Below, in pieces: positions 8,466 to 49,218 of a stretch of 64,000 nucleotides of DNA. The notes beneath the pieces were generated by a model, which had not been told where the DNA came from, ran no database searches, and was given only the letters and a program-made list of their open reading frames with translations. The translations under genes and the position numbers were made by a program. Source of the DNA: an uncultured Chloroflexia bacterium. GTDB lineage: Bacteria > Chloroflexota > Dehalococcoidia > DSTF01 > JACRBR01. The stretch is from positions 129,005 through 193,004 of the forward strand of contig CAVTNG010000009.1 in NCBI GenBank assembly GCA_963736015.1. Reading direction: 5' to 3'. Numbering within the stretch: position 1 is the stretch's first letter; every line of letters begins with the position of its first letter.

Positions 8466-9110
8466 CTAGAGCCGCTCGACCTGCAGGAAGTCCAGCTCGA
8501 TCGGCGTCTCGCGCCCGAACATGTTCACCAGGATCTTCACCTTCCCCTTCTCGAGGTTGATGTCGTCCACGGTGCCCGTGAAGTCCTGGAACGGCCCATC
8601 GACAATGCGCACGTTCTGCCCGACCTGGAACCCGACTTTGACCTTCGGCGCTTCGACGCGCATCTGGCGCAGGATGCGCTTCACCTCCGGCGGCTCCAGC
8701 GGCACTGGCCGCGTGCCCGAGCCCACGAATCCCGTCACACCCGGCGTGTTCCGCACGACGAACCACGCCCGGCTCGACTCGATGTCGTCTTCCTTCAGCT
8801 CGATCATCTGAGTCAGCACATAGCCCGGGAAGATCTTCCGCGCCACGGTGCGCCGCTGGCCGTCGCGGATCTCGATCTCGTCCTCGGTCGGGATCACCAC
8901 CTGGAAGATCAGGTCCTTCGCGTCCATCGTCTGGATGCGGTGCTCCAGGTTCGTCTTTACCTTGTTCTCGTACCCGGAGTACGTGTGGATCACGTACCAC
9001 GCGCGGCCCTCCTGGATCGCCTCATCTTCGGGCGATGCCGGTGGGTTGCCATCGGCATCCAGGGCTGGCTCGACGGCGACCTGCGCGGTGGCCTTGCCTT
9101 TACGCGCCAC
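8466..9110 (-). CDS. nusG: transcription termination/antitermination factor NusG
   Basis: 214-aa ORF with WYVIHTYSGYENKVKTNLE...KVGFQVGQNVRIVDGPFQDFTGTV (NGN + KOW). secE-nusG-rplK synteny. Confidence 0.95.
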   Translation of the reverse strand: MARKGKATAQVAVEPALDADGNPPASPEDEAIQEGRAWYVIHTYSGYENKVKTNLEHRIQTMDAKDLIFQVVIPTEDEIEIRDGQRRTVARKIFPGYVLTQMIELKEDDIESSRAWFVVRNTPGVTGFVGSGTRPVPLEPPEVKRILRQMRVEAPKVKVGFQVGQNVRIVDGPFQDFTGTVDDINLEKGKVKILVNMFGRETPIELDFLQVERL

Positions 9111-9111
9111 C

Positions 9112-9438
9112 CTATTGCCTCAACAGCGTGTGATCGACGAGCCAGTTGAAGAAGATGTCGATGCCGCCCAGCGCCATTCCGATTGCCGCCGATACGACGA
9201 TCACGGCGATCGTCAGCCGCAGCGTCTCCTCCCGCGTCGGCCACGTGACCTTCTTCAGCTCGCTGACAATGTCGCGGAAGTAGCGGACGATCGGGTCGTA
9301 AAAGTGCTTCGGCCGCGCCGTCTCGGCTGCGGCCGCTGACTGCTGCTTCGGCGCAGGGCGCGCGCCCGAAGGCCGGAACGAAGGCGTCTTCGACGGCGGC
9401 TTCTGTACGAGCGACTGCCGGCGCATTGCGCGGCTCAT
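9112..9438 (-). CDS. secE: preprotein translocase subunit SecE
   Basis: 108-aa ORF. C-terminus has FRDIVSELKKVTWPTREETLRLTIAVIVVSAAIGMALGGID. Lies between rpmG and nusG. Confidence 0.9.
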   Translation of the reverse strand: MSRAMRRQSLVQKPPSKTPSFRPSGARPAPKQQSAAAAETARPKHFYDPIVRYFRDIVSELKKVTWPTREETLRLTIAVIVVSAAIGMALGGIDIFFNWLVDHTLLRQ

Positions 9439-9456
9439 GCTGCTCTCTCTCCCTGC

Positions 9457-9621
9457 CTACCGCACCTCGCGGTGGGCCCGGTGGATGCGGCACCTGGGGC
9501 AGAACTTGCTCAGCTCCAGGCGGTCTGGGTCGTTGCGGCGGTTCTTGCTCGTCGTGTACGTACGCTCCTTGCACTCCGTGCAGGCGAGCGTGATGATCTG
9601 CCGGTCTTCCTTCTTCGCCAT
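9457..9621 (-). CDS. rpmG: 50S ribosomal protein L33
   Basis: Not in the ORF track (54 aa). Hand translation: [54 protein letters not shown]. Confidence 0.9.
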
Positions 9622-9724
9622 CTATTCCTCGCGGGCCCTCGACCCGCCGCCGTTCGCGGCCGCCATGCGCGCGTAGGCACCGCCCTACAGTCTATATCGG
9701 GCGGGGCGGGCCCTGCGGCAATGC

Positions 9725-10925
<1,201 letters not shown>

Positions 10926-17819: not shown

Positions 17820-20800
17820 TTGAACTCACTCCCTCGCCACCACACCTCTCGCGCGCAGCTGCTCGGCGTCCTGGCGATGCTCGTCGCCCTCATCGGCACC
17901 GCCCGCTACGCCCCGACGCCCGCCGCCGCCGCCAGCGGCGCCTGGACCGGCGACTTCTACAACAACAAGACACTCAGCAATCCCAAGGTCATCACAGTCA
18001 CCGATCCGGCCAACGCCCTCCTCGGCGCCACTCCCACGCTCGACAAGTACTGGACGGGCTCCCCCGCCTCCGGCGTCAACGCCGACAGCTTCAGCGTCCG
18101 CTGGCAGCGCACCGATACCTGGGCCGCCGGAACCTACCGCTTTACCGTCAAGACCGATGACGGCATGCGCCTTTACGTCGACAACACGAAGATCCTCGAC
18201 CAGTGGATCGACCAGCCCGTCACGACCTACTTCGTCGACTTCGCCGTCAGCGCCGGCCCGCACACCCTGAAGCTCGAGTTCTACGACGCCGTCAACGACG
18301 CCGTCGCACAGCTCACCGTGCAGGACGTCAACACGCTCCCGCCCGGCTGGAACGGCCAGTACTTCTCGAACATGACGCTCGCCGGCAGCCCGACATTCAG
18401 CCGCAACGACGGCGATGCGATCGACTTCCAGTGGAACACCGGCTCCCCCGGCGGCGGCGTCCCGGCCGATGCCTTCAGCGTGCGATGGACGCGCAGCATC
18501 ACCTTCAACGAAGGCGTGTATCAGTTCAGCACCAACAGCGACGACGGCTCACGCGTCTTCGTCGATGGCCAGCTCATCCTCAACGCATGGCAGGATCAGG
18601 CCCTCACCCTCACCACCGCCAATAAACAGATGACGGCCGGCGCCCATACCGTCGTCGTCGAGTACTTCGAGCACGCCGGCGGCGCTGAGATGCACTTCGC
18701 CTACGAATACCGCCCCGATCTCGGCGGCTTCGTTACCGAGCCCATCGTCACCGGCTTCGCCACGGCGACCGTGTTCGCCTTCGCCCCCGATGGCCGCATC
18801 TTCGTCGGCCAGAAGGACGGCACCATCCGCATCTTCAAGAACGGCGCCCTGCTCGGCACGCCCTTCTACACCATCTCCCCGGTGAACAACTACCACGACC
18901 GCGGCCTCATCGGCCTCACGCTCGACCCGAACTTCGCCTCCAACCACTACGTCTACGCGTCCTACACCTACGACCCGAACCCGATCGCCTCGAAGATCGC
19001 CGATCCGAAAAACGCCCAGGTGATCCGCGTCACCGCCAACGGCGATGTCGCCGTGCCTAACAGCAAGGTCGTCCTGCTCGGCACCGTCGTCGGCACACCG
19101 TCCACACCGTCCTGCGAAAGCCTCGACCTCGCCGCCGACTGCATCCCGTCGGACTACGACAGCCACAGCATCGGCAACCTGAAGTTCGGCCCGGACGGCA
19201 AGCTCTACGTCGCCACCGGCGATGGCGCCAGCTACGCCACCGTCGATAGCCGCGCCCTCCGCGCGCAGAACATCGACCGCCTCGCCGGCAAGATCCTGCG
19301 CGTCGACCCCGCCACCGGCCAGGGCCTCTCCGACAACCCCTTCTGGAACGGCAACGCCAACGCCACCCGCTCGAAGGTCTGGGCCTACGGCGTCCGCAAC
19401 GACTTCCGCTTCAACTTCAAGCCCGGCACGAACATCATCATCAGCGGCGAGGTCGGCTGGGATACCTGGGAGGAGCTCAACGTCGTCACCGCCGGCGAGA
19501 ACCTCGGCTGGCCCTGCTACGAGGGCGTCGATGAGCAGCCCGGCTACGCCGCCTTCACTCAATGCCAGTCCCTGTACTCCGCCGGTGGCGTCACCGCCCC
19601 GCTGTACCAGTGGGACCATTCCGCGGGCACGGCCGCCGCCGTCGGCGGCGCCTTCACCGGCACAAACGGATACAGCTCCGCCTACCAGAACGCCTACTTC
19701 TTTGGCGACTACGCCGTGAACCGGATCAGCGCCGCCAAGCTCGACGCCTCCAACAACATCATCCCCGGCAGCCTGCTCACCTTTACGACGGCGGCCGACG
19801 GCCCCGTCGATATCGAGATCGGCCCCGAAGGCGATGTCTATTACCTGGCGATCAACGCCAACGAGATCCGCCGCATCCACTTCGTCGGTGACAACCGTCC
19901 GCCCATCGCCGCCGGAACCGCCTCGCCGTCCGCCGGCCTCACACCGCTCACCGTGAACTTCAACGGCACCGCCTCGAGCGATCCCGATGCCGGGCAGGCC
20001 ATCACCTACGACTGGAACTTTGGCGATGGCAGCGCCCACGCGACGACGGCAACGACCTCGCACCAGTACAACACCATCGGCACCTACACCGCCGTCACTG
20101 ACCGTCACCGATCCGTTCTTCCTCACCGATACGAAGACGTTCCAGATCCAGGCCGGCAACACGCCGCCGAACGCCACGATCACGTCCCCGGCGAACGGCG
20201 GCCACTACGATATCGGCGACATGATCTCCTTCTCCGGCACCGCGAGCGATGCGCAGGACGCCAGCATCCCGCCGTCGAGCATGGCCTGGAGCGTCATCCT
20301 CAACCACTGCTCCGACGCCACGTACACGATCTGTCACACGCACCCGCATCTCACCATGACCGGCACCGGCGGTTCGTTCTCGGCCGATGACCACGGCGAC
20401 TTCACCAACTTCGACATCTTCCTCACCGTCACCGACAGCGGCGGGCCTCACTACGACGAAGCAGGTGAACATCACGCCCAACCGCGTCAACCTCAACTTC
20501 GCCTCCAATATCGCCGGCATCAACATCACCGTCGATAGCGGCAGCGAGACCGTGCCCTTCACGCACAGCGTCCCGCGTAAGTCCGTGCACGTGATCTGTG
20601 CGCCATCACCCCAGACCGTCGGTGCCAACACCTACTTCTTCACCGGCTGGTCCGATGGTGGCGCCGGCTGTCCGTCCGGTGAGCCCCTCCACCGCGTCAC
20701 CGCCGACGTGAACAAGACGCTCACCGCCACCTTCGCTCTGCCCACGCCGACGCCCACGAGTACGCCGACGTTCACGAGCACGCCGACGCCGACGCGCACG

Positions 20801-21801
20801 CCGACACCGACCCGCACCAACACGCCGACAGCCACACACACGCCGTCGCCCACGGCCACGAGCACGCCCACCCTGCCCGACGCCGATAGCGATGGCATGC
20901 CCGACGCGTTCGAGGCGGCCCACCCGTGCCTCAACGCCGCCGTCAACGACGCCGGGCTGGACCCGGACGTCGATACCGTCACCAATCTCGCCGAGTACGG
21001 AAACGGCACGAACCCGTGCGCTGCCGACACCGACGGCGACGGCTTCAAGGACAAGCCCGCGACGCTGCATCTCGCCGTCAACGCCGATACCGCCGTCGAT
21101 AACTGCCCGCTCGTCGCCAACGCCGGCCAGCAGAACTCCGATGCCGTGATCGACAACGGCCCGGACATCGTCGCGCCGGACGTCACCGTGGCCAGGAGCG
21201 ACGCGCTCGGCGATGCCTGCGATCCCGACGTCGACAACGACGGCCTGCCCAACGCCGAGGACATCGAGCCCCTCGGCGCCACCGGCATCTGCGCCGCCTT
21301 CGCGGGGGAGTCCGACGGACACCCCTTCCCCGCCGGCGGCGACATCACCAGCGACGACAACGCCGACGGAGACTCCGCGCCGCCCCTCGGAACCGACGCC
21401 GCCGACAACGGCCCATCATGGGACACCGACAACGACGGCGTGCTCGATGGTGTCGAGTGTCAACTCGGCACCAACCCCCGAAACGCCGCCTCGCGCCCAT
21501 CGAGCGCGCAGTGCGGCGGCGCCGTGGACGCCGATGGAGATCTTCTCCGGCCTCAACCGAGACATGCAAGTGGGGGACGTCCGACTCCAGCACCGACAGC
21601 GATGGTGACGGCATCGCCGACTGCGTCGAGGTGAATGACCTGGACGGTAATGGCGTGCAGAATTTCCCGGGCGACACAATAAAAATTGCCAATGCCACGG
21701 CGGGAAACGCCGCGAAGTCCCTGGACTTCGATCTCAACGGCGATGGCATCGTGAACTTCCCCGGAGACGCGGTCCTTTCCGCCAAGATCGCGCTGCGGTA
21801 A
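17820..21801 (+). pseudogene. ~1327-aa secreted multidomain protein: signal peptide, 2x PA14, PQQ/glucose-sorbosone dehydrogenase-like beta-propeller, PKD-like, PT linker, TSP3 repeats, dockerin-like tail; three frame changes (~20096, ~20445, ~21548)
   Basis: TTG start and hydrophobic leader LLGVLAMLVALIG. PA14-like GDFYNN...FSVRW twice. Propeller segment PDGRIFVGQKDGTIRIF. PT-rich 20738-20877. Tail DLDGNGVQNFPGD...DLNGDGIVNFPGD. Confidence 0.8.
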
Positions 21802-21917
21802 CACTTGCTCGTAGACGCGTTGCCTCTCATGTGCTTTACGTCGCCCCGCCATGCGCGTATGCTCTGCGCTGTTAGCCCCGCACGTCGCCCGCTAGGCCGC
21901 CAGGATCGGAGATAACG

Positions 21918-24563
21918 GTGCGCCTCAACCTTCGACGCTGCCCCGTGTTGTCAGGCTTCGTTCTGCCTCTCATGGTCGTCGCGTCAGCCGCGGGCGTCAT
22001 CCCCACTGGCGCTGACCATCAACGCGTGCTCGCGCAGTCGCCCGTCCGGCACTGGAATGGCAACGCGACCGCGCCCGCGATCGATACGCTCTCGATCCAT
22101 GCCGGCAAGCCCGCCAACGCGAAGCTCGATAGCCATCTCGCCGATCTCGCCTCCGTCGTCACCTTCCAGCGCGGCCTCGGCCTCGCGCCCTCCACCAGCG
22201 GCGCGGCGCTCCCCGCCGATCTCGCCTCGCTCGAGGCGGCCGGCGTCCTCCACACCGATGGTCACGGCCGGGTCCAGGTGTACGTCCACTACCAGGGCAA
22301 CGCCGACACGTGACGCAAGGACTCGCCGCGCTCGGCGCCACCGTGCGAGGCGTCCAGTGATGACGATCGCATCATTCAGGCGGAGGTCGATGCAGGCGCA
22401 CTACCCGCCGCCTCCGCCATCGCCGGCGTGACGTTCATCTCACCGCCGGACTACGTCATCCCCGCGACCGGCGCCGCCCTCACACAGGGCGATGCCCTCC
22501 TGCTCGCAAGCCAGGCCCGCACCAACCTCGGCGTCGATGGCACGGGCGTCCGCGTCGGCGTCATCTCCGATGGCATCGCTGGTCTCGCCGCGAGCCAGGG
22601 CTCGAACGACGTCGGCCCCGTGACCTCACAGTCGTTCCGCGCCGACATGAACCTCAACGCCGGGCCGGAGGGCACGGCCATGCTCGAGATCGTGCACGAC
22701 CTCGCCCCCGGCGCCGAGCTCTGGTTCGCCAACGCCAGCACCACCATCGAGTTCGCCAACGCCGTCACTTTCCTCGCTGGCAACGTCGATGTAGTGGTCG
22801 ATGATCTGCGCGCGTTCGGCGGTCCCTACGACGGCACCAGCACCATCTCGATGGCGAGTTCCTCGAACTCCACGAACCCCGCGAAACGCGAGCGCGTCCA
22901 CCTCAACGCCGTCGGCAACGACGCCCTCGACCACTACCAGGAGCCGTTCGTCGCCTCGGGCTTCACTTTCAACGATGGCGGCGTCGCGGCCCCCGTCCAT
23001 GGCTTCCAGGCAACAGCCTCGACAACAGACGGCGGCTTCCCCCAGTTCTGCAACGGCACGAGCGGCATCTCCTGCTGGAACATGCTCGCCCTCCCCGTCG
23101 GCGGTACCGCCACCGTCTTCGTTGAGTGGAACGACCCCTTCGGCGCGTCCTCGAACGACTACGACGCCTTCCTGTTCGACGCCACAAGTCCCGGCCCCAT
23201 CAGTACGAGCACCAACCGGCAGAACGGCACTCAGAATCCCGTCGAGGTCGTCGGCGTAACCAACAACACCGCGCAGCCGCAGGCCTACTTCCTGCTCCTC
23301 GCGAAGTTCGCCGGCGCCACGCGCACCTTCGACATCTTCCTCAGCTGCTCGCCGTTCTGCCTCTTCTTCAACAACAACGCCGACCTCAACTTCAACACCA
23401 TCTCCAGCAGCGTCCCTAACAACTCCGATGCCGGCGGCAACGTCCTCGGCCTCGCCGCCATCGACCAGGCCGATCCCGGCACCGACACCGCCGAGCTCTA
23501 CTCCAGCCGCGGGCCGACGAACGACGCCCGCAACAAGCCCGATATCACCACCGTCGACGGCGTCGCCATCACCGGCAACGGCGGGTTCCCCGTCCCCTTC
23601 TTCGGCACCTCCGCCGCCGCGCCGCACGCAGGCGCCATCGCCGCCCTCGTGCTCCAGTGCTTCCCCGCGCTCAAATCGGGCGAGGTCGGTGACAACCCGG
23701 CCGCGGATCGCGCCACCGTCCGCACGAAGCTCACCTCGGGCCTCACAGATCTCGGCACCGCCGGCGTTGATACCACCTTCGGTGCCGGCCGCATGAACGC
23801 CGTCACCTCCACCACCGGATGCGACAGCGACGTCGATGGCGTCGTTAACGCTTCGGACAACTGCCCCATCCTCGCGAACGCATCGCAGGCCAACTTCGAT
23901 GCCGCGCCCATCGACAACGGCATCGGCATCGTCGGTAACGACGCCTCTGTGCCCGGCGCGGACAACCTCGGCGACGCCTGCGATCCCGACCGCGACAATG
24001 ACGGCCTGCCGGATGCGTCCGAATCCCCGCTCGCCGGTTGCGGCGCCTTCAACGGGATCGTCTCGACGCACCCTAACCCCGCCGGCGGCGACGCCACCGA
24101 CGACGACAACGCCAACGGGGACCCCGCCCCCCTTGATGGTGCCGATCTCGCCGACAACGGCCCCTCCTGGGACACCGACAACGATGGCGTCCGGGATGGT
24201 TACGAGTGCGCCAACGGCTCCAACCCGCGCGACGCCGCGTCGCTTCCGCTGCCCCTCGGCGATGACGCCGCGGACACCGACAACGACGGCCTACTCAACG
24301 GCTGGGAACGCCGCGGCTGGGGCACCGACCCCACAAAGGCCGACACCGATGGCGATGGCAAGTCGGACTGCGCCGAAGCCGGCGACGTCGATGGAAACGG
24401 CAGCTTCAACTTCCCCGGCGACAGCCTAGCCGTCGCCCGCGCCGCCCTCGTCCCGGGCTTTGGCCGCACCAGCGACCTGGACCTCAACAAGGACGGCGTC
24501 GTGAACTTCCCCGGTGATGCCATCAACAGCGCCAAGCGCGCCCTCGGCGTCATCCCCTGCTGA
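21918..24563 (+). pseudogene. ~881-aa secreted S8 (subtilase)-like peptidase with TSP3 + dockerin-like tail; compensating -1/+1 pair at ~22310/~22358 leaves an in-frame TGA
   Basis: GTG 21918 after GGAG, plus a signal peptide. Motifs GVRVGVISDGI and GTSAAAPHAGAIAAL. The local frame-2 stretch VTQGLAALGATVRGVQ bridges TGA 22311-22313. Tail DVDGNGSFNFPGD...DLNKDGVVNFPGD. Confidence 0.8.
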
Positions 24564-39023: not shown

Positions 39024-39131
39024 CGCGCACTTCCCACATCCGTCTCTTCGAAGGGCGCCACATCGAATGTGGCGTCGCCTGGTTCTGACGACGGTCGAAC
39101 GCCTCTACGGCCCGCACGCCCCGAACGCCCT

Positions 39132-39178
39132 GCCATCCCGAGCGCCAACCATGTCATCCCGAGCGCTAGCGAGGGATC
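39132..39178. repeat. dispersed repeat family A, half unit plus full unit
   Basis: gccatcccgagcgccaaccat + gtcatcccgagcgctagcgagggatc. Confidence 0.6.
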
Positions 39179-39327
39179 TACTCCGCACCACCTCCACCGT
39201 CACATCTCCCGCTACCCCGGCGCGCGCCGCCCACCGCTCGGAGTTCGACCCCCGCCCGGCGTACCATCGCCACATGCGCATCGGGACCGACACCTCACTC
39301 CAACACCACCGGCCGCCAAGCACCCTG

Positions 39328-39484
39328 CGTTCGATTGCCCCGGGCCCGGTCCAATCAAGTCCAATCAAACGCAATCAGACAATTCCGCCTCGCGCACGCC
39401 GCCGCAGATTCAAAGCACCCGGGAACCGTGCCCTCAGACCCTCGCAACACGCCGCAGAAAAACGCGCGAGAACGCAATCAAAGC
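39328..39484 (+). mobile_element. MITE-like ~155-bp repeat, copy A (family C)
   Basis: Aligns along its length with the reverse complement of 58219-58363. Imperfect termini cgttcGATTGC...GCAATCaaagc. Internal CAATCA(A/G) reiterations. Confidence 0.5.
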
Positions 39485-39500
39485 CCGGACGCCAGCCGAT

Positions 39501-39528
39501 GTAACCTTTCAGTGCCCCCTTCCGTCTA
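39501..39528 (+). promoter_or_regulatory. ECF-type promoter candidate (GTAACC-16 nt-CGTCTA) upstream of the ECF sigma gene
   Basis: Matches the generic ECF pattern of an AAC-containing -35 and a CGTC -10. Sits 24 nt upstream of GTG 39552, suggesting autoregulation. Confidence 0.45.
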
Positions 39529-39551
39529 ACTCTGTGAAAGGGGAAAGAGAC

Positions 39552-40232
39552 GTGGACGACCCGCGCGGCGGCTCCGCACTCGCGCTCCTCGAGCGCGCAA
39601 AATCCGGCGATAAGGACGCCTTCGGCCTCCTCGCCGAGGAGCATCGCGCCGCTCTCCTCCGCCTCTGCTACAAAATGACCGGATCGCACGAAGAGGCCGA
39701 GGACCTCGTCCAGGAAACCCTCCTCAAGGCCTTCACCCACATAGGGGAGTTCGAGCTCCGCGCCTCGCTCTCAACGTGGCTCTTCCGCATCGCCACCAAC
39801 GCCTGTCTCGACCACCAGCGTGGCCGCAAGCCCTGGGATCTCGACAGCCGCTGGCAGTGGTTTCGCGAGAACGGCGAGCTCGTGAAGCAGGTCGAGCAGA
39901 CCCTCTACCTCTCGCCCGAGCGCTCCGCCGAAGTGCGAGAGGTCGCCGCGACGTGCGTCAACTGCATCGCCATGTCGTTGCCCGCGAAGCAGCGCGCCGC
40001 CCTCGTCCTCTGCGACCAGATCGGCCTCTCTCGCGAGGAGGCCGCGCACTCCATCGGCGCCTCGGTCGCCTCCGTGAAGACGGAGCTGCACCGCGCCCGC
40101 AAGACCATGACCGACGTCTTCGAGAAGCGCTGCGCCCTCGTCGACGCCAACAACGAGTGCGATGGCTGCCTCGTCGCCGGCCGCATACAGCGCACGCGGC
40201 GGCCCGAAGCAGTCAGCGAAGGAGAAGTCCCC
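39552..40232 (+). CDS. ECF (sigma-70 family, group 4) RNA polymerase sigma factor
   Basis: GTG 39552. Region 2 is HEEAEDLVQETLLKAFTHIGEF...STWLFRIATNACLDHQR. Region 4 is LPAKQRAALVLCDQIGLSREEAAHSIGASVASVKTELHRARK. No stop before the next gene in this frame. Confidence 0.8.
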
Positions 40233-40568
40233 ATGACCTGCGACCAGATCGAGGAGCTCATGTCCGACCTCATCGATGACGAGCTCGCTGCAGGAGTGCG
40301 CGCTGGCGTCGAGGCCCACCTCGCATCCTGTGAGCGCTGCGCGAAGTCCTTCCGCGCGCTTGAGCGCACCGTCCGCTTCGTGCGCGCTAACTCGCGCCCG
40401 CGCCTCGCCTCGCACACACCCGGCGGCGTCTACGCCGACTTCACCCGCGCTCTCGCGGATGACGCCTACAACCGCGATCCGGTCGAGGTGCTCGTCAGCG
40501 GCATCGGAGACCTCATGCCCGCGCAGTCAGAAGCAGCGGACCGCATCAGCGGACGCAAGGAGGACTGA
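40233..40568 (+). CDS. zf-HC2-type anti-sigma factor (cytoplasmic, no TM segment)
   Basis: Own AAGGAG RBS 8 nt upstream. MTCDQIEELMSDLIDDELAAGVRAGVEAHLASCERCAKSFRAL (H-x3-C-x2-C motif). Confidence 0.7.
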   Translation: MTCDQIEELMSDLIDDELAAGVRAGVEAHLASCERCAKSFRALERTVRFVRANSRPRLASHTPGGVYADFTRALADDAYNRDPVEVLVSGIGDLMPAQSEAADRISGRKED

Positions 40569-40569
40569 A

Positions 40570-41919
40570 ATGCAGAGCGATGTTGTCATCATCGGCGGCG
40601 GCCTCACCGGCCTGGCGACAGGCGCTCTGCTCGCGAAGGCGGGCAAGCGCGTCACCGTTCTCGAGAAGGGCAACACGCCCGGTGGCCGCGCCTACACCTA
40701 CGAGGACAAGGGCTTCACGCTGAACTACGGCCCGCACGCCGTCTACCGCCCCGACACCGGCTTTCTCGGCGAGCTCATGGCGCGTCTCGGCCGCCCCGTC
40801 CCGAAGTGCGGCTACCCCGAGCCGATCAAGAGCTACTGGGCCGATGAAGACCGCTTCGCATCCGTCGGCGCGAAGCCGCACCAGCTTCTCGGCACAAAGC
40901 TCTTCTCGCTCGGCTCGAAGGTCACCCTCGCCCGCCTCTTCCTCAAGCTGAAGGGCGAGAAGCCCGACCGCCTCGCCGATGACATGACGTGGGGTGACTG
41001 GATCGACCGCTTCACCGATGACCAGGCGCTTCGCCGCTTTGCCCGCGCTCTCGGCACCGTGAACACCTACACGCGCCCTTCACGCGAGCTGAGCGCGCGT
41101 TTCCTCATCGACGCGCTGCAGCGCAACATGTTCGCGAAGGACTATGTCGGCTACATGTGGGGCGGCTGGAGCGTCATGTACGACGCCTTCATCGACGTCA
41201 TCAACGCCCATGGCGGCGCGCTCGTCACCGGCGCGCGCGTCGACGCCCTGGATCTCACAGCCGATGGTGCGATCATCGCCGCCATCGCCGGCAGCGATCG
41301 CTACGAAGCTGGCGCCTTCGTCTGCACCCTCCCGCCGCAGGACGCACCGGACATCGCGGCACCGGGCTCCCCGCTCGCGGCGGAGCTGTCCCAGTGGTCG
41401 AAGCTCCAAGACGTCCGCGCCGCCTGCATCGACCTCGGCTTCAACCGCATCGTCCGCGATGACCTCACGTTCATCTACGACATCGAGTCCGACCTGTACT
41501 ACAGCATGCACTCCGCCACGGCGCCCGATCTCGCTCCCGCCGGCGGCCAGCTGCTCCACGCCATGGCCTACCTCTCGCCGGGCGAAGCCGCCGACGACAC
41601 GCTCCTCGCGCAGCGGAAGGAGCAGCTCATCGCCGGACTCGATCGCTTCTTCCCCGGCTGGCGCGATGCAGTTGCCGTCGAGCGCACACTGCCGAACGCG
41701 CGCGTCGTCGTCGCCCGCAACACGCCGCAGCAGTTCACCCGAAACCGCGTGCCGCTGCGATCGACGACCGCAGCGAATCTCTACTTCGCCGGCGATGGAC
41801 GCGATCTCCCGCTCAACTTGAGCGAACTCTGCCTCGCCTCCGCCATGGAGGCCGCAGACGCAATCACGCGCGACCTCCCCGTAGGTGAGCGTGTCGCGGA
41901 GGCTGTCGCCCGAGCCTGA
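40570..41919 (+). CDS. NAD(P)/FAD-dependent oxidoreductase (phytoene desaturase/CrtI-like amine-oxidase fold)
   Basis: 449-aa ORF with MQSDVVIIGGGLTGLATGALLAKAGKRVTVLEKGNTPGGRA...LYFAGDG. Confidence 0.8.
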   Translation: MQSDVVIIGGGLTGLATGALLAKAGKRVTVLEKGNTPGGRAYTYEDKGFTLNYGPHAVYRPDTGFLGELMARLGRPVPKCGYPEPIKSYWADEDRFASVGAKPHQLLGTKLFSLGSKVTLARLFLKLKGEKPDRLADDMTWGDWIDRFTDDQALRRFARALGTVNTYTRPSRELSARFLIDALQRNMFAKDYVGYMWGGWSVMYDAFIDVINAHGGALVTGARVDALDLTADGAIIAAIAGSDRYEAGAFVCTLPPQDAPDIAAPGSPLAAELSQWSKLQDVRAACIDLGFNRIVRDDLTFIYDIESDLYYSMHSATAPDLAPAGGQLLHAMAYLSPGEAADDTLLAQRKEQLIAGLDRFFPGWRDAVAVERTLPNARVVVARNTPQQFTRNRVPLRSTTAANLYFAGDGRDLPLNLSELCLASAMEAADAITRDLPVGERVAEAVARA

Positions 41920-41991
41920 CGCGCCACGAAATCGCAGGAGCAAACATAATCGTCTGGCGCTCGATGCGGTGGGCCGCGAAGATACCGCTCA

Positions 41992-43393
41992 ATGCGCCGG
42001 TTCATCGTGTTTGTCGCCGTAGTCGCACTCGCACTGTCGTCGCTCCCGCGGCCGGTGGCCCGCGTGGCCGCCGACCCGCAGGGCAGCCCGCATTTGGAGC
42101 TCGACGCCGACCCTACGAACGGCACGCGCCCGTGCGATCCGATTGACGCGACCGCTACCGTCCCCGCAAGCACGCCGACCTACAACGTTGCCATCTGCAT
42201 CGATGAGCAGCTACCCGAAGCGATCTGGGGTTTCGAGGCCCGCGTCATCTGGTCCGGCGGCGTCGCGACCGCCATTGAGGTCCCGGACGTACCCGTCGCA
42301 CTCGACGACAACCCCGACTTCAACGATGCCCCGGGACCCGACGGCAACGGCGATGGCTGGGGCTGCACTGGCTATAACACCGCCTGGCCGAAGGGGAGAT
42401 GGGCCGGACACGGCCGAGACGGATGCGTACATCACGTGCGTCGTGAGTCCGCCCGGGCCTGGCGAGATGGCAGCATCGCCGGGACTCCTCGCCACGGTCA
42501 CGATGCAGGCGAGCGGTGCTGGCACCGAGACATTCGCGTTCTCAACGCTCGGCGATTCACAGATCGGATACCTAACGGCGAACTACGCCTGCAGCCAGGG
42601 CGTCTCGTGCCCGGGCGCCATGGTGATCCAGGCGTCGGAGGACGCGGACGGCGACGGAGTAGATGACGCCACTGACAACTGCCCGGGAATCGCGAACCCC
42701 GGGCAACAGAACACCGACCGCGAGATTGACAACGGCCCGGGGATTGCCGCGAAGGACATTACCGTCCCCAACGCCATTAGCGACACTGATGGCGACGCGT
42801 GCGAGACCGACGGCGATGCCGACAACGACGGGCTCGCGGACGCGAGCGAAGCGCCGCTCGGCAACTGCGGCGACTTCGACGGCACGGCCGCCTCGCACCC
42901 GAGTCCTGCCGGCGGCGACCTCACGAACGACGATAACGGAAACGGTGTGCCCGCACCGACGGATGTCGCCGACAATGGACCATCGTGGGACACGGACAAC
43001 GATGGAGCGCTCGACGGCGCCGAGTGCCAGCTCAACTTCAACCCGCGCTCGAGTTCGAGACCAAGCGCCGCCCAGTGTGGCGGCGCCGTCGACGCGGATG
43101 GCGACGGGCTACCGCTGTCTGCCGAGCGCTGTAAGTGGGGCACGATCGACACTGCCGTCACGGGCGTTGACTCCGACGGCGATGGCAAGAAGGACTGCAT
43201 CGAGGCCAACGACACGAACGGCGACGGTGTGCAGAACTTTCCCGGCGACACCATCAACTCGGCGAAGGCCGCGAACAGCATCATCGCCAAGACGATGGAC
43301 TTCGACCTCAACGGCGACGGCGTCGTCAACTTCCCGGGCGACACTATCCTGAGCGCCAAGCTGTCCAACCACGTCGGCGGAATCTGCGTCTAG
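41992..43393 (+). pseudogene. ~467-aa secreted protein: signal peptide, cohesin-like N-terminal domain, TSP3 repeats, dockerin-like tail; frame change near 42396
   Basis: MRRFIVFVAVVALALSSLP. Cohesin-like strands YNVAICIDEQLPEAIWGFEARVIWSGG and PGLLATVTMQASGAGTETFAFS. Tail DTNGDGVQNFPGD...DLNGDGVVNFPGD. Length 3n+1. Confidence 0.7.
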
Positions 43394-43427
43394 CCCGGCG
43401 GCCGCCGTGAAACGGACTCCTTGGGGA

Positions 43428-48034: not shown

Positions 48035-49218
48035 ATGAGGTTCACGTTCACGGCACGAGCAGGAGACGTTTCGACGGGAAGTTGAGGACTTTCTGCGCGG
48101 GGCGCTGCCTGCTGACTGGGAGGGCGCGGACAACGCGATCGACGACGAGTCCTACCAGTTCGGACGCGAGTTCCTGAAGAAGCTGGCGCCGAAGCACTGG
48201 ATCGCGCCCGCGTGGCCGAAGCAATACGGCGGGCTGGAGCTATCGCTCTGGGATCAGGTGGTGTTCAACGAGGCGATGGGCTACGCGCGCGCGCCGATCG
48301 TCAACACGGCCGCGGTCGGGTACCTGGGACCGACGATCATGCTCTACGGTTCCGACGAGCAGAAGCAACAGCATCTGCCCGGCATCACCTCTGGCGATGT
48401 AGTGTGGTGCCAGGGATACAGCGAGCCGAACTCCGGCTCGGATCTCGGCCTCGCTCCAGACGCGAGCCATGCAGGACGGCGACGACTTCATCCTGAACGG
48501 CCAGAAGATCTGGACGAGCCAGGCGCACTACGCCGACTGGATGTTCGTGCTGGCGCGCACAGACCCGGATGCGCCAAAGCATCGCGGCATCAGCTACTTC
48601 CTGATGGATATGAAGACGCCCGGCGTGTCGGTGCGGCCGCTCATCAACATGGCGAACGGCGAGGGATTCAACGAGGTGTTCTTCGAGAACGTCCGCATCC
48701 CGCGATCCGGCCTGCTCGGTGAACTGAACCGCGGCTGGTACATCGCCACGACGACGCTGGACTTCGAGCGATCGTCGATTGGCGGAACGGCGCAGGCGCG
48801 CCGCGCGCTCGAGGATCTGGTGCGGTTCGCGAAGTCGGAGCGCGAAGCGGGGACACGCAAGGCGCTCTGGGGCCGTGCGAACGTGCGCCATGCGATCGCC
48901 GATCTCTGGATCGATCTCGAGATGGCGCGGATGCTGTCGTATCGGGTGGTGAGCATGCAGGAACGAGGCCTGGTGCCGAACTACGAGGCATCGATCATCA
49001 AGGTGTTCTCTTCAGAATACGTGCAGCGGCAGGCGCGCGTCGGGCTCAGCATCATGGGGCTATACGGCGGCCTCTGGGGCGATGGACCCTGGGCGAAGCT
49101 GCGCGGGCGGTTCTCGAAATCGTATGTCGCGACCGTTGGGACGGCCATCGCCGGCGGCACGTCCGAGATCCAGCGAAACATCATCGCCCAGCGCGGGCTC
49201 GGGCTGCCGAGACAGTAG
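48035..49218 (+). pseudogene. acyl-CoA dehydrogenase paralog 4, two frame changes (~48053, ~48455)
   Basis: MRFTFT / HEQETFRREVEDFL...WIAPAWPKQYGG...YGSDEQKQQHL...WCQGYSEPNSGSDLG / LQTRAMQDGDDFILNGQKIW...GGTSEIQRNIIAQRGLGLPRQ*. Confidence 0.8.

What the first reader, a model, noticed from the sequence alone, without database searches (positions are those of the whole stretch)
39501..43393. ECF sigma / anti-sigma / FAD oxidoreductase / cohesin-like scaffold candidate in one co-directional block
The third tail-bearing protein (41992-43393) has no enzyme-like domain. After its signal peptide it has a ~190-aa region with the strand pattern typical of cohesin modules. Examples: YNVAICIDEQLPEAIWGFEARVIWSGGVATAIEV, then AYITCVVSPPGPGEMAASPGLLATVTMQASGAGTETFAFS. 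It could therefore be the binding partner or scaffold for the dockerin-like tails of the two enzymes at 17820-24563, and it carries such a tail itself. It sits directly downstream of an ECF sigma gene, a soluble zf-HC2 anti-sigma gene and a CrtI-like flavoprotein, all on the same strand. The sigma gene has an ECF-type promoter candidate (GTAACC-16-CGTCTA at 39501-39528). Together this suggests a signal-regulated surface display module.
Basis: inference. Interest (0 to 1): 0.7.

Follow-up and report, generated by a model that had tools for sequence, protein, structure and literature searches.

The report
Divergent cohesin–dockerin scaffold protein beside ECF cassette
The gene at 41992-43393 encodes a secreted protein with a highly divergent cohesin-fold module and a dockerin-like tail, probably part of a non-cellulosomal enzyme-tethering system in a Dehalococcoidia bacterium, but nothing shows that the neighbouring ECF sigma cassette controls it.

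Summary
The four genes and the promoter motif are at the stated coordinates. However, the raw window carries two 1-nt insertions, at 40194 and at 42393-42396. The first fuses the sigma gene to the anti-sigma gene. The second splits the "cohesin-like" gene into two frames. A ~99% identical contig (L003) has both genes intact. EF-Tu is also frameshifted in the window, so these are most likely assembly errors.

The cohesin guess holds up. With a 66-sequence alignment, AlphaFold2 gives pLDDT 95, and the 41 best PDB matches are all cohesins. 13 of 66 family members hit Pfam Cohesin, although the window's own module does not. The ~250-aa tail consists of TSP3 repeats plus a divergent dockerin (hhalign 94% to Pfam-verified dockerins).

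In relatives the module is combined with membrane or sortase-like anchors or with dockerins. It often lies next to tail-bearing genes, including an orthologue of the window's PA14-GSDH enzyme. An adaptor-scaffoldin role is therefore plausible, but binding is untested.

The sigma / ZAS anti-sigma / FAD-oxidoreductase trio is a conserved cassette with an invariant promoter. The cohesin gene follows it only in the near-identical contig, and the promoter motif occurs nowhere else in the window. The idea of a signal-regulated display module is not supported.

The parts
39500..39529 (+). ECF-type promoter TGTAACCTTT-N12-CCGTCTAA, 22 nt upstream of the sigma start codon
   Evidence: Invariant in 5 loci whose surrounding upstream DNA has diverged. 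Unique in the window with up to 3 mismatches, against 0 expected.
39552..40236 (+). ECF sigma factor gene. The true product is about 227 aa. In the raw window an extra A at 40194 makes it read through to 40568.
   Evidence: Sigma70_r2 E=3e-19 and Sigma70_r4_2 E=1e-10. P0189 is 95-97% identical, 227 aa, and ends in the other frame. The indel was located by DNA alignment.
40233..40568 (+). Soluble zinc-binding (ZAS) anti-sigma factor, 111 aa, with C3...H29-x3-C33-x2-C36, a GAAGGAG ribosome-binding site and an ATGA overlap with the sigma stop
   Evidence: zf-HC2 E=2e-9. It is a separate 111-aa gene in L003 and a 112/102-aa gene in L006/L007. No hydrophobic segment is visible in the sequence.
40570..41919 (+). 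Cytoplasmic FAD-dependent oxidoreductase of the amine-oxidase superfamily (CrtI/HpnE-like), 449 aa; the conserved third gene of the sigma cassette
   Evidence: Amino_oxidase E=4e-27 and NAD_binding_8 E=1e-18. All NCBIfam equivalog hits are below cut-off. It is conserved directly after the anti-sigma gene in L003, L006, L007 and L008.
41992..42069 (+). Signal peptide (MRRFIVFVAVVALALSSLPRPVARVAA) of the cohesin-dockerin protein
   Evidence: Read from the sequence. Relatives also have N-terminal hydrophobic leaders.
42070..42640 (+). Divergent cohesin-fold module (~190 aa; six conserved Cys; a ~50-residue ordered insert containing DDNPDxN and GWxC). It is interrupted by a 1-nt insertion in the GGGG run at 42393-42396.
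   Evidence: AF2 pLDDT 95.2, pTM 0.92. The top 41 Foldseek PDB hits are all cohesins. The family has 297 representatives. Pfam Cohesin hits 13 of 66 members. Frameshift.
42641..43168 (+). Thrombospondin type-3 (calcium-binding) repeat region forming the first part of the shared ~250-aa tail
   Evidence: TSP_3 E=3e-6. NCBIfam throspo3_MtsC E=3e-8, below cut-off. It is 55-60% identical to the two other tails in the window.
43169..43393 (+). Divergent dockerin-like module: two D-x-N-G-D-G-x-x-N-F-P-G-D loop + helix segments (starting at 43211 and 43304), flanked by Cys residues
   Evidence: Motif scan. hhalign against Pfam-verified dockerins of the same family gives prob 94.4%, E=9e-8. Pfam Dockerin_1 itself gives no hit at E<=1.
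21598..21798 (+). Dockerin-like end of the tail of the frameshifted PA14-GSDH-PKD enzyme gene (17820-21798)
   Evidence: An intact 1305-aa orthologue lies next to cohesin-like genes in L004.
24345..24563 (+). Dockerin-like end of the tail of the subtilase (Peptidase_S8) gene

Best explanation
Two independent units lie side by side.

Unit 1 (39500-41919) is a conserved, autoregulated cassette: an ECF sigma, a soluble RsrA-like ZAS anti-sigma and a cytoplasmic FAD oxidoreductase. It probably acts as a cytoplasmic redox or thiol-stress switch whose conserved output is the flavoprotein (inferred).

Unit 2 (41992-43393, after removal of a 1-nt assembly insertion) encodes a secreted 466-aa protein. 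Its parts are a signal peptide, a highly divergent cohesin-fold module, TSP3 calcium-binding repeats and a divergent dockerin. It most likely acts as an adaptor-scaffoldin-like component of a non-cellulosomal cohesin-dockerin system of a Dehalococcoidia bacterium. In this model its cohesin-like face would bind the dockerin-like tails of secreted enzymes, here the PA14-GSDH-PKD dehydrogenase and the S8 protease. Its own dockerin would plug into membrane- or wall-anchored relatives of the same cohesin family, so that enzymes are tethered at the cell surface.

Shown here: the fold, the family membership by transitive homology, the tail homology, the domain architectures and the gene neighbourhoods. 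Inferred: the actual cohesin-dockerin binding, its specificity and the surface localisation.
For: Fold: AF2 pLDDT 95.2. Foldseek ranks 1-41 are all type I/II/III cohesins, with E from 5e-5 to 1e-3 and target-normalised TM up to 0.70.

Sequence: the family profile's only PDB hit is the cohesin dyad 3L8Q, at the two hallmark strands. Pfam Cohesin hits 13 of 66 members (best E=1e-6) and P0012 at 64 bits.

Tail: hhalign to Pfam-verified dockerins gives 94.4%, E=9e-8. Both kinds of tail occupy the same C-terminal position in the family and share flanking Cys residues.

Architectures among the 153 relatives inspected: about 64 end in a TM helix plus basic tail, at least 25 end in a two-loop dockerin-like tail, and 29 carry 2-3 cohesin-like modules.

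Neighbourhoods: L004 has the order [tail protein] [PA14-GSDH-PKD-tail enzyme] [cohesin-like + 2 tails], followed by a divergently oriented [cohesin-like + TM anchor] gene. L002 has a tail protein next to an anchored cohesin-like gene. Of 25 metagenome loci, 7 have a separate tail-bearing ORF directly adjacent.

Independence of the sigma cassette: the trio is conserved in L006-L008 without the cohesin gene. The promoter is invariant upstream of the sigma gene only.

Frameshifts as errors: L003 is intact, and EF-Tu is split in the window.
Against: The window's own module does not reach Pfam Cohesin, nor its tail Pfam Dockerin_1, even at E<=1.

The structural match is moderate (query-normalised TM about 0.5, rmsd 4-7 A), and the module has a ~50-residue insert absent from canonical cohesins.

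No co-fold or binding test could be run.

The hhalign score is partly driven by generic EF-hand-like DxNxDG loops.

[quoted passage not shown] 2009, cited in PMC2930009).

There is no + strand terminator in the 72-nt gap between 41919 and 41992, so read-through from the sigma promoter cannot be excluded.
Confidence: 0.6

Rival explanations
1. One reading: the four genes form one signal-regulated surface-display module. The ECF sigma, released from its anti-sigma, drives the cohesin-like scaffold gene and the tail-bearing enzyme genes.
For: The genes are co-directional. Only 72 nt separate 41919 from 41992 and no + strand terminator is found there. The same four-gene order is present in L003. 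The sigma promoter is genuine.
Against: L003 is ~99% identical, so it is not an independent observation. In L006, L007 and L008 the trio is followed by unrelated genes. About 30 other cohesin-like loci lack this sigma. The motif is absent upstream of 17820, 21918 and 41992, even with 3 mismatches allowed. The anti-sigma is cytoplasmic and has no extracellular sensor, unlike the RsgI anti-sigma factors that control cellulosome genes (PMC12484212).
Confidence: 0.15
2. The cohesin-fold module does not bind dockerins. It would instead be a structural or adhesive beta-sandwich that binds a glycan, the S-layer or another ligand. The TSP3 + dockerin-like tail would be a calcium-dependent cell-envelope attachment or stabilising module in its own right.
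For: The module has a large Cys-rich insert and lies below the Pfam Cohesin threshold. Cohesin-like folds occur in non-scaffoldin proteins, for example the C. perfringens GH84C hits 2jh2 and 2w1n. No binding data exist.
Against: The module family and the tails are repeatedly adjacent, and they are combined in anchor, adaptor and cargo architectures like those of cellulosomes. Some family members carry Pfam-grade Cohesin and Dockerin_1 in one protein.
Confidence: 0.2
3. The frameshifts are real. In this strain the cohesin-dockerin gene is a pseudogene, and the sigma is truly fused to its anti-sigma.
For: The raw sequence shows both changes. All three tail-bearing genes in the window are disrupted. 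Genuine sigma-ZAS fusions exist in a sister clade.
Against: The essential EF-Tu gene and an acyl-CoA dehydrogenase are also frameshifted, which points to assembly indels. The 42393 change is in a G homopolymer. L003 is intact at both sites. The window's read-through linker (RTRRPEAVSEGEVP) differs from the conserved sigma C-terminus of close relatives.
Confidence: 0.1

Closest known systems
Cellulosomal adaptor scaffoldins (cohesin + dockerin in one secreted protein, e.g. Acetivibrio cellulolyticus ScaA/ScaB; PDB 3L8Q, 1QZN, 4UMS)
   Same: A secreted protein that combines a cohesin-fold module with a C-terminal dockerin. Relatives carry 1-3 modules and either anchors or dockerins. Dockerin-bearing enzymes are encoded nearby.
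   Different: Sequence identity to cohesins is 8-14%, and the module has a ~50-residue insert and six conserved Cys. A TSP3 spacer replaces the usual linkers or X-modules. The dockerin calcium loops are one residue longer (NFPGD). The cargo is a PQQ-type sugar dehydrogenase and a subtilase rather than glycoside hydrolases. The host is Dehalococcoidia, not Clostridia. Binding is untested.
[quoted passage not shown] 2009, FEMS Microbiol Lett 291:1, cited in PMC2930009; candidates in Saccharophagus degradans, PMC2386152)
   Same: Cohesin-like and dockerin-like modules in an organism without a cellulosome, attached to diverse non-cellulolytic proteins, with unknown function.
   Different: This is a distinct, largely Pfam-invisible subfamily (297 clusters at 50% identity). 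It has its own anchor types and clear genomic clustering of cohesin-like and dockerin-like genes. I found no description of it in the searched literature.
SigR-RsrA type ECF sigma with a soluble ZAS anti-sigma (own knowledge)
   Same: A two-domain ECF sigma. A ~110-aa cytoplasmic anti-sigma with C-x25-H-x3-C-x2-C spacing. Translational coupling. An autoregulatory AAC...CGT promoter.
   Different: The sigma has extra invariant Cys residues (CxxC at 135-138; C194, C203, C206). The conserved partner gene is an amine-oxidase-type flavoprotein. A sister clade fuses sigma and anti-sigma into one chain. The ECF group was not assigned.
SigI-RsgI control of cellulosome genes in Clostridium thermocellum (PMC12484212)
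   Same: An alternative sigma/anti-sigma pair proposed to regulate cohesin-dockerin components.
   Different: RsgI is a membrane protein with an extracellular carbohydrate sensor. Here the anti-sigma is soluble, and comparative genomics shows no link to the cohesin-like genes.

Membership tests
Cohesin (Pfam PF00963; cellulosomal cohesin modules) | Beta-sandwich jelly-roll fold of cohesin type | tested here: met
   AF2 pLDDT 95.2 and pTM 0.92. Foldseek PDB ranks 1-41 are all cohesins, probability 1.00, target-normalised TM 0.5-0.70.
Cohesin (Pfam PF00963; cellulosomal cohesin modules) | The window's own sequence matches the Pfam Cohesin HMM above the gathering score | tested here: not met
   No Cohesin hit even at E<=1 for the repaired protein, or at E<=0.1 for the isolated module (member 1).
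Cohesin (Pfam PF00963; cellulosomal cohesin modules) | Homology to bona fide cohesins through intermediate sequences | tested here: met
   13 of 66 aligned family members hit PF00963 (best E=1e-6), and no other Pfam family recurs. P0012 scores 64.2 bits against a cut-off of 24.1, inside the family domains. The family profile's only PDB hit is the cohesin dyad 3L8Q, E=0.16.
Cohesin (Pfam PF00963; cellulosomal cohesin modules) | Calcium-dependent binding of a cognate dockerin | not testable with these tools
Only indirect neighbourhood evidence exists.
Dockerin (Pfam PF00404) | Two tandem segments, each an EF-hand-like calcium loop followed by a helix | tested here: met
   DTNGDGVQNFPGD...SAKAA starts at 43211 and DLNGDGVVNFPGD...SAKLS at 43304. 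The loop is one residue longer than the canonical 12.
Dockerin (Pfam PF00404) | Match to the Pfam Dockerin_1 HMM | tested here: not met
   No hit at E<=1. Relatives with the same tail type also show no Dockerin_1 hit at E<=0.01 (P0007, P0009, P0015, P0020).
Dockerin (Pfam PF00404) | Profile-profile relationship to verified dockerins | tested here: met
   hhalign of 19 NFPGD tails against 10 canonical tails of the same family (five of them verified by Pfam Dockerin_1) gives prob 94.4%, E=9e-8 over 59 columns.
Cellulosome | The dockerin-bearing cargo consists of plant-cell-wall glycoside hydrolases | tested here: not met
   The cargo in the window is PA14 + GSDH + PKD and Peptidase_S8. The L004 cargo is the same GSDH type.
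ECF sigma / ZAS anti-sigma pair | Sigma with only regions 2 and 4, and an anti-sigma with H-x3-C-x2-C | tested here: met
   Sigma70_r2, Sigma70_r4_2 and zf-HC2. HLASCERC is visible in the sequence.
ECF sigma / ZAS anti-sigma pair | Two separate, co-transcribed genes | tested here: inconclusive
   The raw window has one 338-codon ORF. L003, L006 and L007 have two genes with an ATGA overlap. The window differs by one extra A at 40194, most likely an assembly error.
ECF sigma / ZAS anti-sigma pair | Autoregulatory ECF-type promoter (AAC -35 element, CGT -10 element) | tested here: met
   TGTAACCTTT-N12-CCGTCTAA is invariant in 5 loci. Its function was not tested.

The most novel reading that the evidence does not exclude
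Dehalococcoidia (Chloroflexota) have their own multi-tier, cellulosome-like surface assembly system. It would be built from a previously undescribed, Cys-rich cohesin subfamily. Anchoring versions carry uncharacterised C-terminal sorting signals such as PP[DS]TGSGG-TM-RRR, and adaptor versions resemble this gene. The matching dockerins would be TSP3-spaced, possibly disulfide-clasped, with 13-residue calcium loops. The system would display non-cellulolytic enzymes (sugar dehydrogenases, proteases) on cells whose envelope is poorly understood.
Probability: 0.4. Interest if true: 0.65.

Novelty: new variant of a known kind. Interest (0 to 1): 0.5.

Why it matters
Cohesin-dockerin pairs are the standard example of extracellular protein assembly and are widely used in synthetic biology. 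Outside cellulosomes, however, their function is largely unknown.

This lineage offers a compact and testable case. It has a divergent cohesin subfamily that standard domain models mostly miss, clear anchor, adaptor and cargo architectures, genomic clustering with the cargo, and non-carbohydrate-active cargo enzymes.

If binding is confirmed, three things follow. It would add an orthogonal cohesin-dockerin pair. It would show how uncultured Dehalococcoidia organise exoenzymes on their surface. It would also point to new C-terminal sorting signals.

There is a practical lesson as well. The window is indel-prone, so gene-level claims from it need frame repair against relatives.

Tried and rejected
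- Pfam and NCBIfam scans of the repaired protein found only TSP3, with no Cohesin or Dockerin hit.
- The first AF2 run, with a 5-sequence alignment, gave pLDDT 44 and was unusable. It was rescued by a 66-sequence alignment built from the exhaustive HMMER search.
- The word-indexed homologue search found only 4 relatives of the module and 11 tail fragments. The tail hits are short ORFs on long contigs, consistent with frameshift-fragmented genes.
- The search for related loci with the 66-sequence alignment failed because no stretch was conserved enough.
- NCBIfam models for sorting signals did not match the relatives' C-terminal anchors.
- Peer et al. 2009 is not held in the paper library. Searches for cohesin or dockerin in Chloroflexi or Dehalococcoidia found nothing specific.
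- A GC3-phase scan meant to count frameshifts across the window was too noisy to use on its own. It was replaced by Pfam checks of split ORFs.
- Programmed +1 frameshifting at the GGGG run was rejected, because the near-identical L003 has an uninterrupted gene.
- A true sigma/anti-sigma fusion in this organism was rejected as the more likely reading, because the closest relatives have the conserved sigma C-terminus in the other frame.


Full report
**1. What is in the sequence**

The window is about 67% G+C. On the + strand between 39500 and 43393 there are four coding regions.

- An ECF sigma starts at GTG 39552. It has Sigma70_r2 (E=3e-19) and Sigma70_r4_2 (E=1e-10).
- A zf-HC2 domain (E=2e-9) begins at ATG 40233, behind a GAAGGAG ribosome-binding site. 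It has the spacing C3-x25-H29-x3-C33-x2-C36 and no hydrophobic segment.
- A 449-aa amine-oxidase/CrtI/HpnE-like flavoprotein lies at 40570-41919. Amino_oxidase scores E=4e-27, and every NCBIfam equivalog hit is below its cut-off.
- A protein with a signal peptide lies at 41992-43393. Its only Pfam hit is TSP_3.

The motif GTAACC-N16-CGTCTA is exactly at 39501-39528.

**2. Two silent frame repairs**

Removing one G from the GGGG run at 42393-42396 gives a continuous 466-aa protein. Four homologues align straight across the junction.

In the raw sequence the sigma and the zf-HC2 domain form one 338-codon ORF with no stop between them.

A contig from ENA sample ERZ25039502 (L003) differs at 48 positions over these 4.1 kb. 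It carries a 227-aa sigma, a 111-aa anti-sigma overlapping it by ATGA, the flavoprotein, and an intact 468-aa orthologue of the fourth gene. Relative to L003, the window has exactly two frame-breaking changes in this block: an extra A at 40194 and an extra G at 42393. The sigma C-terminus read in the L003 frame (RIQRRGGPKQSAKEKSA) is the one shared with other relatives.

The window is generally indel-prone.

- EF-Tu is split between two frames near 10,200, and an acyl-CoA dehydrogenase near 48,500.
- The PA14-GSDH-PKD gene at 17820-21798 changes frame at least twice, and the subtilase gene has an in-frame stop.

I therefore treat both indels as assembly errors, at about 85-90% confidence.

**3. 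The N-terminal module is a divergent cohesin**

An exhaustive HMMER search with a profile of the module found 297 cluster representatives, 39 of them at E<=1e-30. The family has six conserved Cys residues and the motifs NGxxPCxPxD, DDNPDAN and GWDC.

With only 5 sequences AlphaFold2 failed (pLDDT 44). With 66 sequences it gave pLDDT 95.2 and pTM 0.92. The model is an all-beta domain with an ordered, non-regular insert at about residues 68-116.

Foldseek against the PDB returned cohesins of types I, II and III at ranks 1-41. E-values ran from 5e-5 to 1e-3, probability was 1.00, and TM was up to 0.70 normalised to the target and about 0.5 normalised to the query.

Three independent sequence results agree.

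- The family profile's only hit among PDB sequences is the cohesin dyad 3L8Q. The hit is weak (E=0.16), but it falls at the two hallmark strand motifs in both cohesins of the dyad.
- Pfam Cohesin is the only recurrent Pfam hit among the 66 aligned modules: 13 hits, best E=1e-6.
- The three-module relative P0012 scores 64 bits on PF00963.

The window's own module does not reach the Pfam model. Membership therefore rests on transitive homology plus fold.

**4. The tail is TSP3 repeats plus a divergent dockerin**

The three tails in the window are each about 250 aa and 55-60% identical along their whole length. Each ends with two D-x-[DN]-x-[DN]-G-x-x-N-F-P-G-D loop-helix segments.

Pfam Dockerin_1 does not detect them. 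However, other members of the same cohesin-like family carry Pfam-verified Dockerin_1 at the same C-terminal position (P0005, P0011, P0022, P0037, P0042). A profile-profile comparison of the two tail types gives 94.4% probability and E=9e-8.

Both tail types are bracketed by a Cys just before loop 1 and a Cys within the last few residues. This suggests a disulfide clasp (inference).

**5. Architectures and neighbourhoods fit a cohesin-dockerin system**

Among the 153 relatives inspected:

- about 64 end in a hydrophobic helix plus a basic tail, some preceded by PP[DS]TGSGG;
- at least 25 end in two-loop dockerin-like tails;
- 29 have two or three cohesin-like modules.

In a Dehalococcoidia MAG (L004), four adjacent genes encode, in order:

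- a tail-bearing protein;
- a PA14-GSDH-PKD-TSP3-tail enzyme with the same architecture as the window's 17820 gene;
- a cohesin-like protein with two complete tails;
- on the opposite strand, a cohesin-like protein with a C-terminal membrane anchor.

In L002 a tail-bearing protein directly precedes an anchored cohesin-like gene.

Of 25 further metagenome loci, 7 have a separate tail-bearing ORF directly adjacent, 7 carry a tail on the cohesin-like protein itself, and 6 have two cohesin-like genes in tandem. Many of these contigs are only a few kb long, so these counts are lower bounds.

This is the anchor, adaptor and cargo logic of cellulosomes, but with non-cellulolytic cargo (GSDH-type dehydrogenase and S8 protease). 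Actual binding was not tested.

**6. The sigma cassette is a separate unit**

The order sigma, ZAS anti-sigma, flavoprotein is conserved, with overlapping or abutting genes, in L006 (87% identical sigma) and L007 (81%). In L008 the sigma and anti-sigma are genuinely fused. In all three loci the gene downstream of the flavoprotein is unrelated: Flp/Fap, DUF3291 and PNPOx respectively.

The sequence TGTAACCTTT-N12-CCGTCTAA is invariant upstream of the sigma gene in all five loci, although the flanking DNA is unalignable. This is good comparative evidence for an autoregulated ECF promoter. In the window the motif is unique even when 3 mismatches are allowed. It is absent upstream of 17820, 21918 and 41992.

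None of the roughly 30 other cohesin-like loci carries this sigma.

The only argument for co-regulation is a 72-nt gap without a recognisable + strand terminator. The four-gene order recurs only in the ~99% identical L003.

**7. Comparison with known systems, and novelty**

Non-cellulosomal cohesin-like and dockerin-like modules across many phyla have been catalogued. Examples are Peer et al. 2009 (cited in PMC2930009; the details are from my own knowledge because the paper is not held) and the candidates noted in Saccharophagus degradans (PMC2386152). The kind of system is therefore known.

What appears new is this particular subfamily.

- It is mostly invisible to Pfam.
- It has a Cys-rich insert.
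- It is coupled to TSP3-spaced dockerins with a longer calcium loop.
- It occurs in Dehalococcoidia, judging from source names and record titles.
- It has its own anchor types, which match no NCBIfam sorting-signal model.

Literature searches found no description of it. I rate it a new variant of a known kind.

**8. Verdict**

- Observation: partly confirmed. The genes and the motif are real, but two frameshifts were glossed over.
- Interpretation: partly supported. The cohesin-like fold holds, and the scaffold role is plausible. ECF-regulated display is not supported.
- Interest: 0.5.

Noticed in passing
window 9725-10925 (- strand): The essential EF-Tu gene is split by a frameshift near 10,200-10,225. 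The GTP_EFTU domain is in ORF 9963-10925, and domains 2 and 3 are in ORF 9725-10225 in another frame. This shows that the window comes from an indel-prone assembly.
   Followed up: yes
window 48039-49218 (+ strand): An acyl-CoA dehydrogenase is split between two overlapping frames. The N domain is in one ORF, and the middle and C domains are in the other.
   Followed up: partly
window 17820-21798 and about 22311: The PA14-GSDH-PKD-TSP3-dockerin enzyme gene changes frame at least twice, whereas its 1305-aa orthologue in L004 is intact. The subtilase gene starting at 21918 has an in-frame stop (NADT*RKDS).
   Followed up: partly
proteins P0154-P0216 (e.g. L008 7001-8077): A sister clade (64-71% identical) has genuine single-chain fusions of this ECF sigma with its ZAS anti-sigma domain. 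The fusions are 330-360 aa, have variable linkers and no Met at the junction. P0192 is seen on more than 20 contigs, including a SPAdes-named contig.
   Followed up: partly
window 39552-40236 (sigma residues 135-138 and 194-206): The sigma carries invariant cysteines: CxxC between regions 2 and 4, and C-x8-C-x2-C in a short C-terminal extension. They are conserved in both separate and fused forms. This may be a metal or redox site in the sigma itself.
   Followed up: no
window 39056-43400 versus L003 9505-13850: The sigma-to-cohesin block is about 99% identical to L003. Upstream of 39056 there is no detectable similarity. Downstream of about 43400, identity drops to about 88% with many indels. 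Possible causes are recombination, transfer of the block, or assembly problems among acyl-CoA dehydrogenase paralogues.
   Followed up: partly
P0001, P0003, P0004, P0016, P0060 and others (C-termini): Relatives of the cohesin-like module end in [RQ]PP[DS]TGSGG followed by a TM helix and a basic tail, or in GSGW...TM...YARRRR. Neither pattern matches any NCBIfam sorting-signal model. They are candidate uncharacterised sorting or anchoring signals in Chloroflexota.
   Followed up: partly
window 43190-43390; tails of P0005, P0011, P0042, P0133 and others: Both canonical and variant dockerins of this lineage have a Cys about 5 residues before the first calcium loop and a Cys within the last 1-4 residues. 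This suggests a disulfide clasp joining the two ends of the dockerin.
   Followed up: no
JGI metagenome 3300033233 (contigs Ga0334722_...; loci L009-L016, L001, L006): One sample holds at least eight distinct cohesin-like genes (47-52% identical to the window's module) on different long contigs. It also holds an 87% identical copy of the sigma cassette. This suggests a related organism with a large cohesin-like repertoire.
   Followed up: partly
window 8466-10925 (- strand): A conserved housekeeping cluster, nusG (8466-9110), secE (9112-9456) and tuf, is present. It could be used to place the organism phylogenetically.
   Followed up: no
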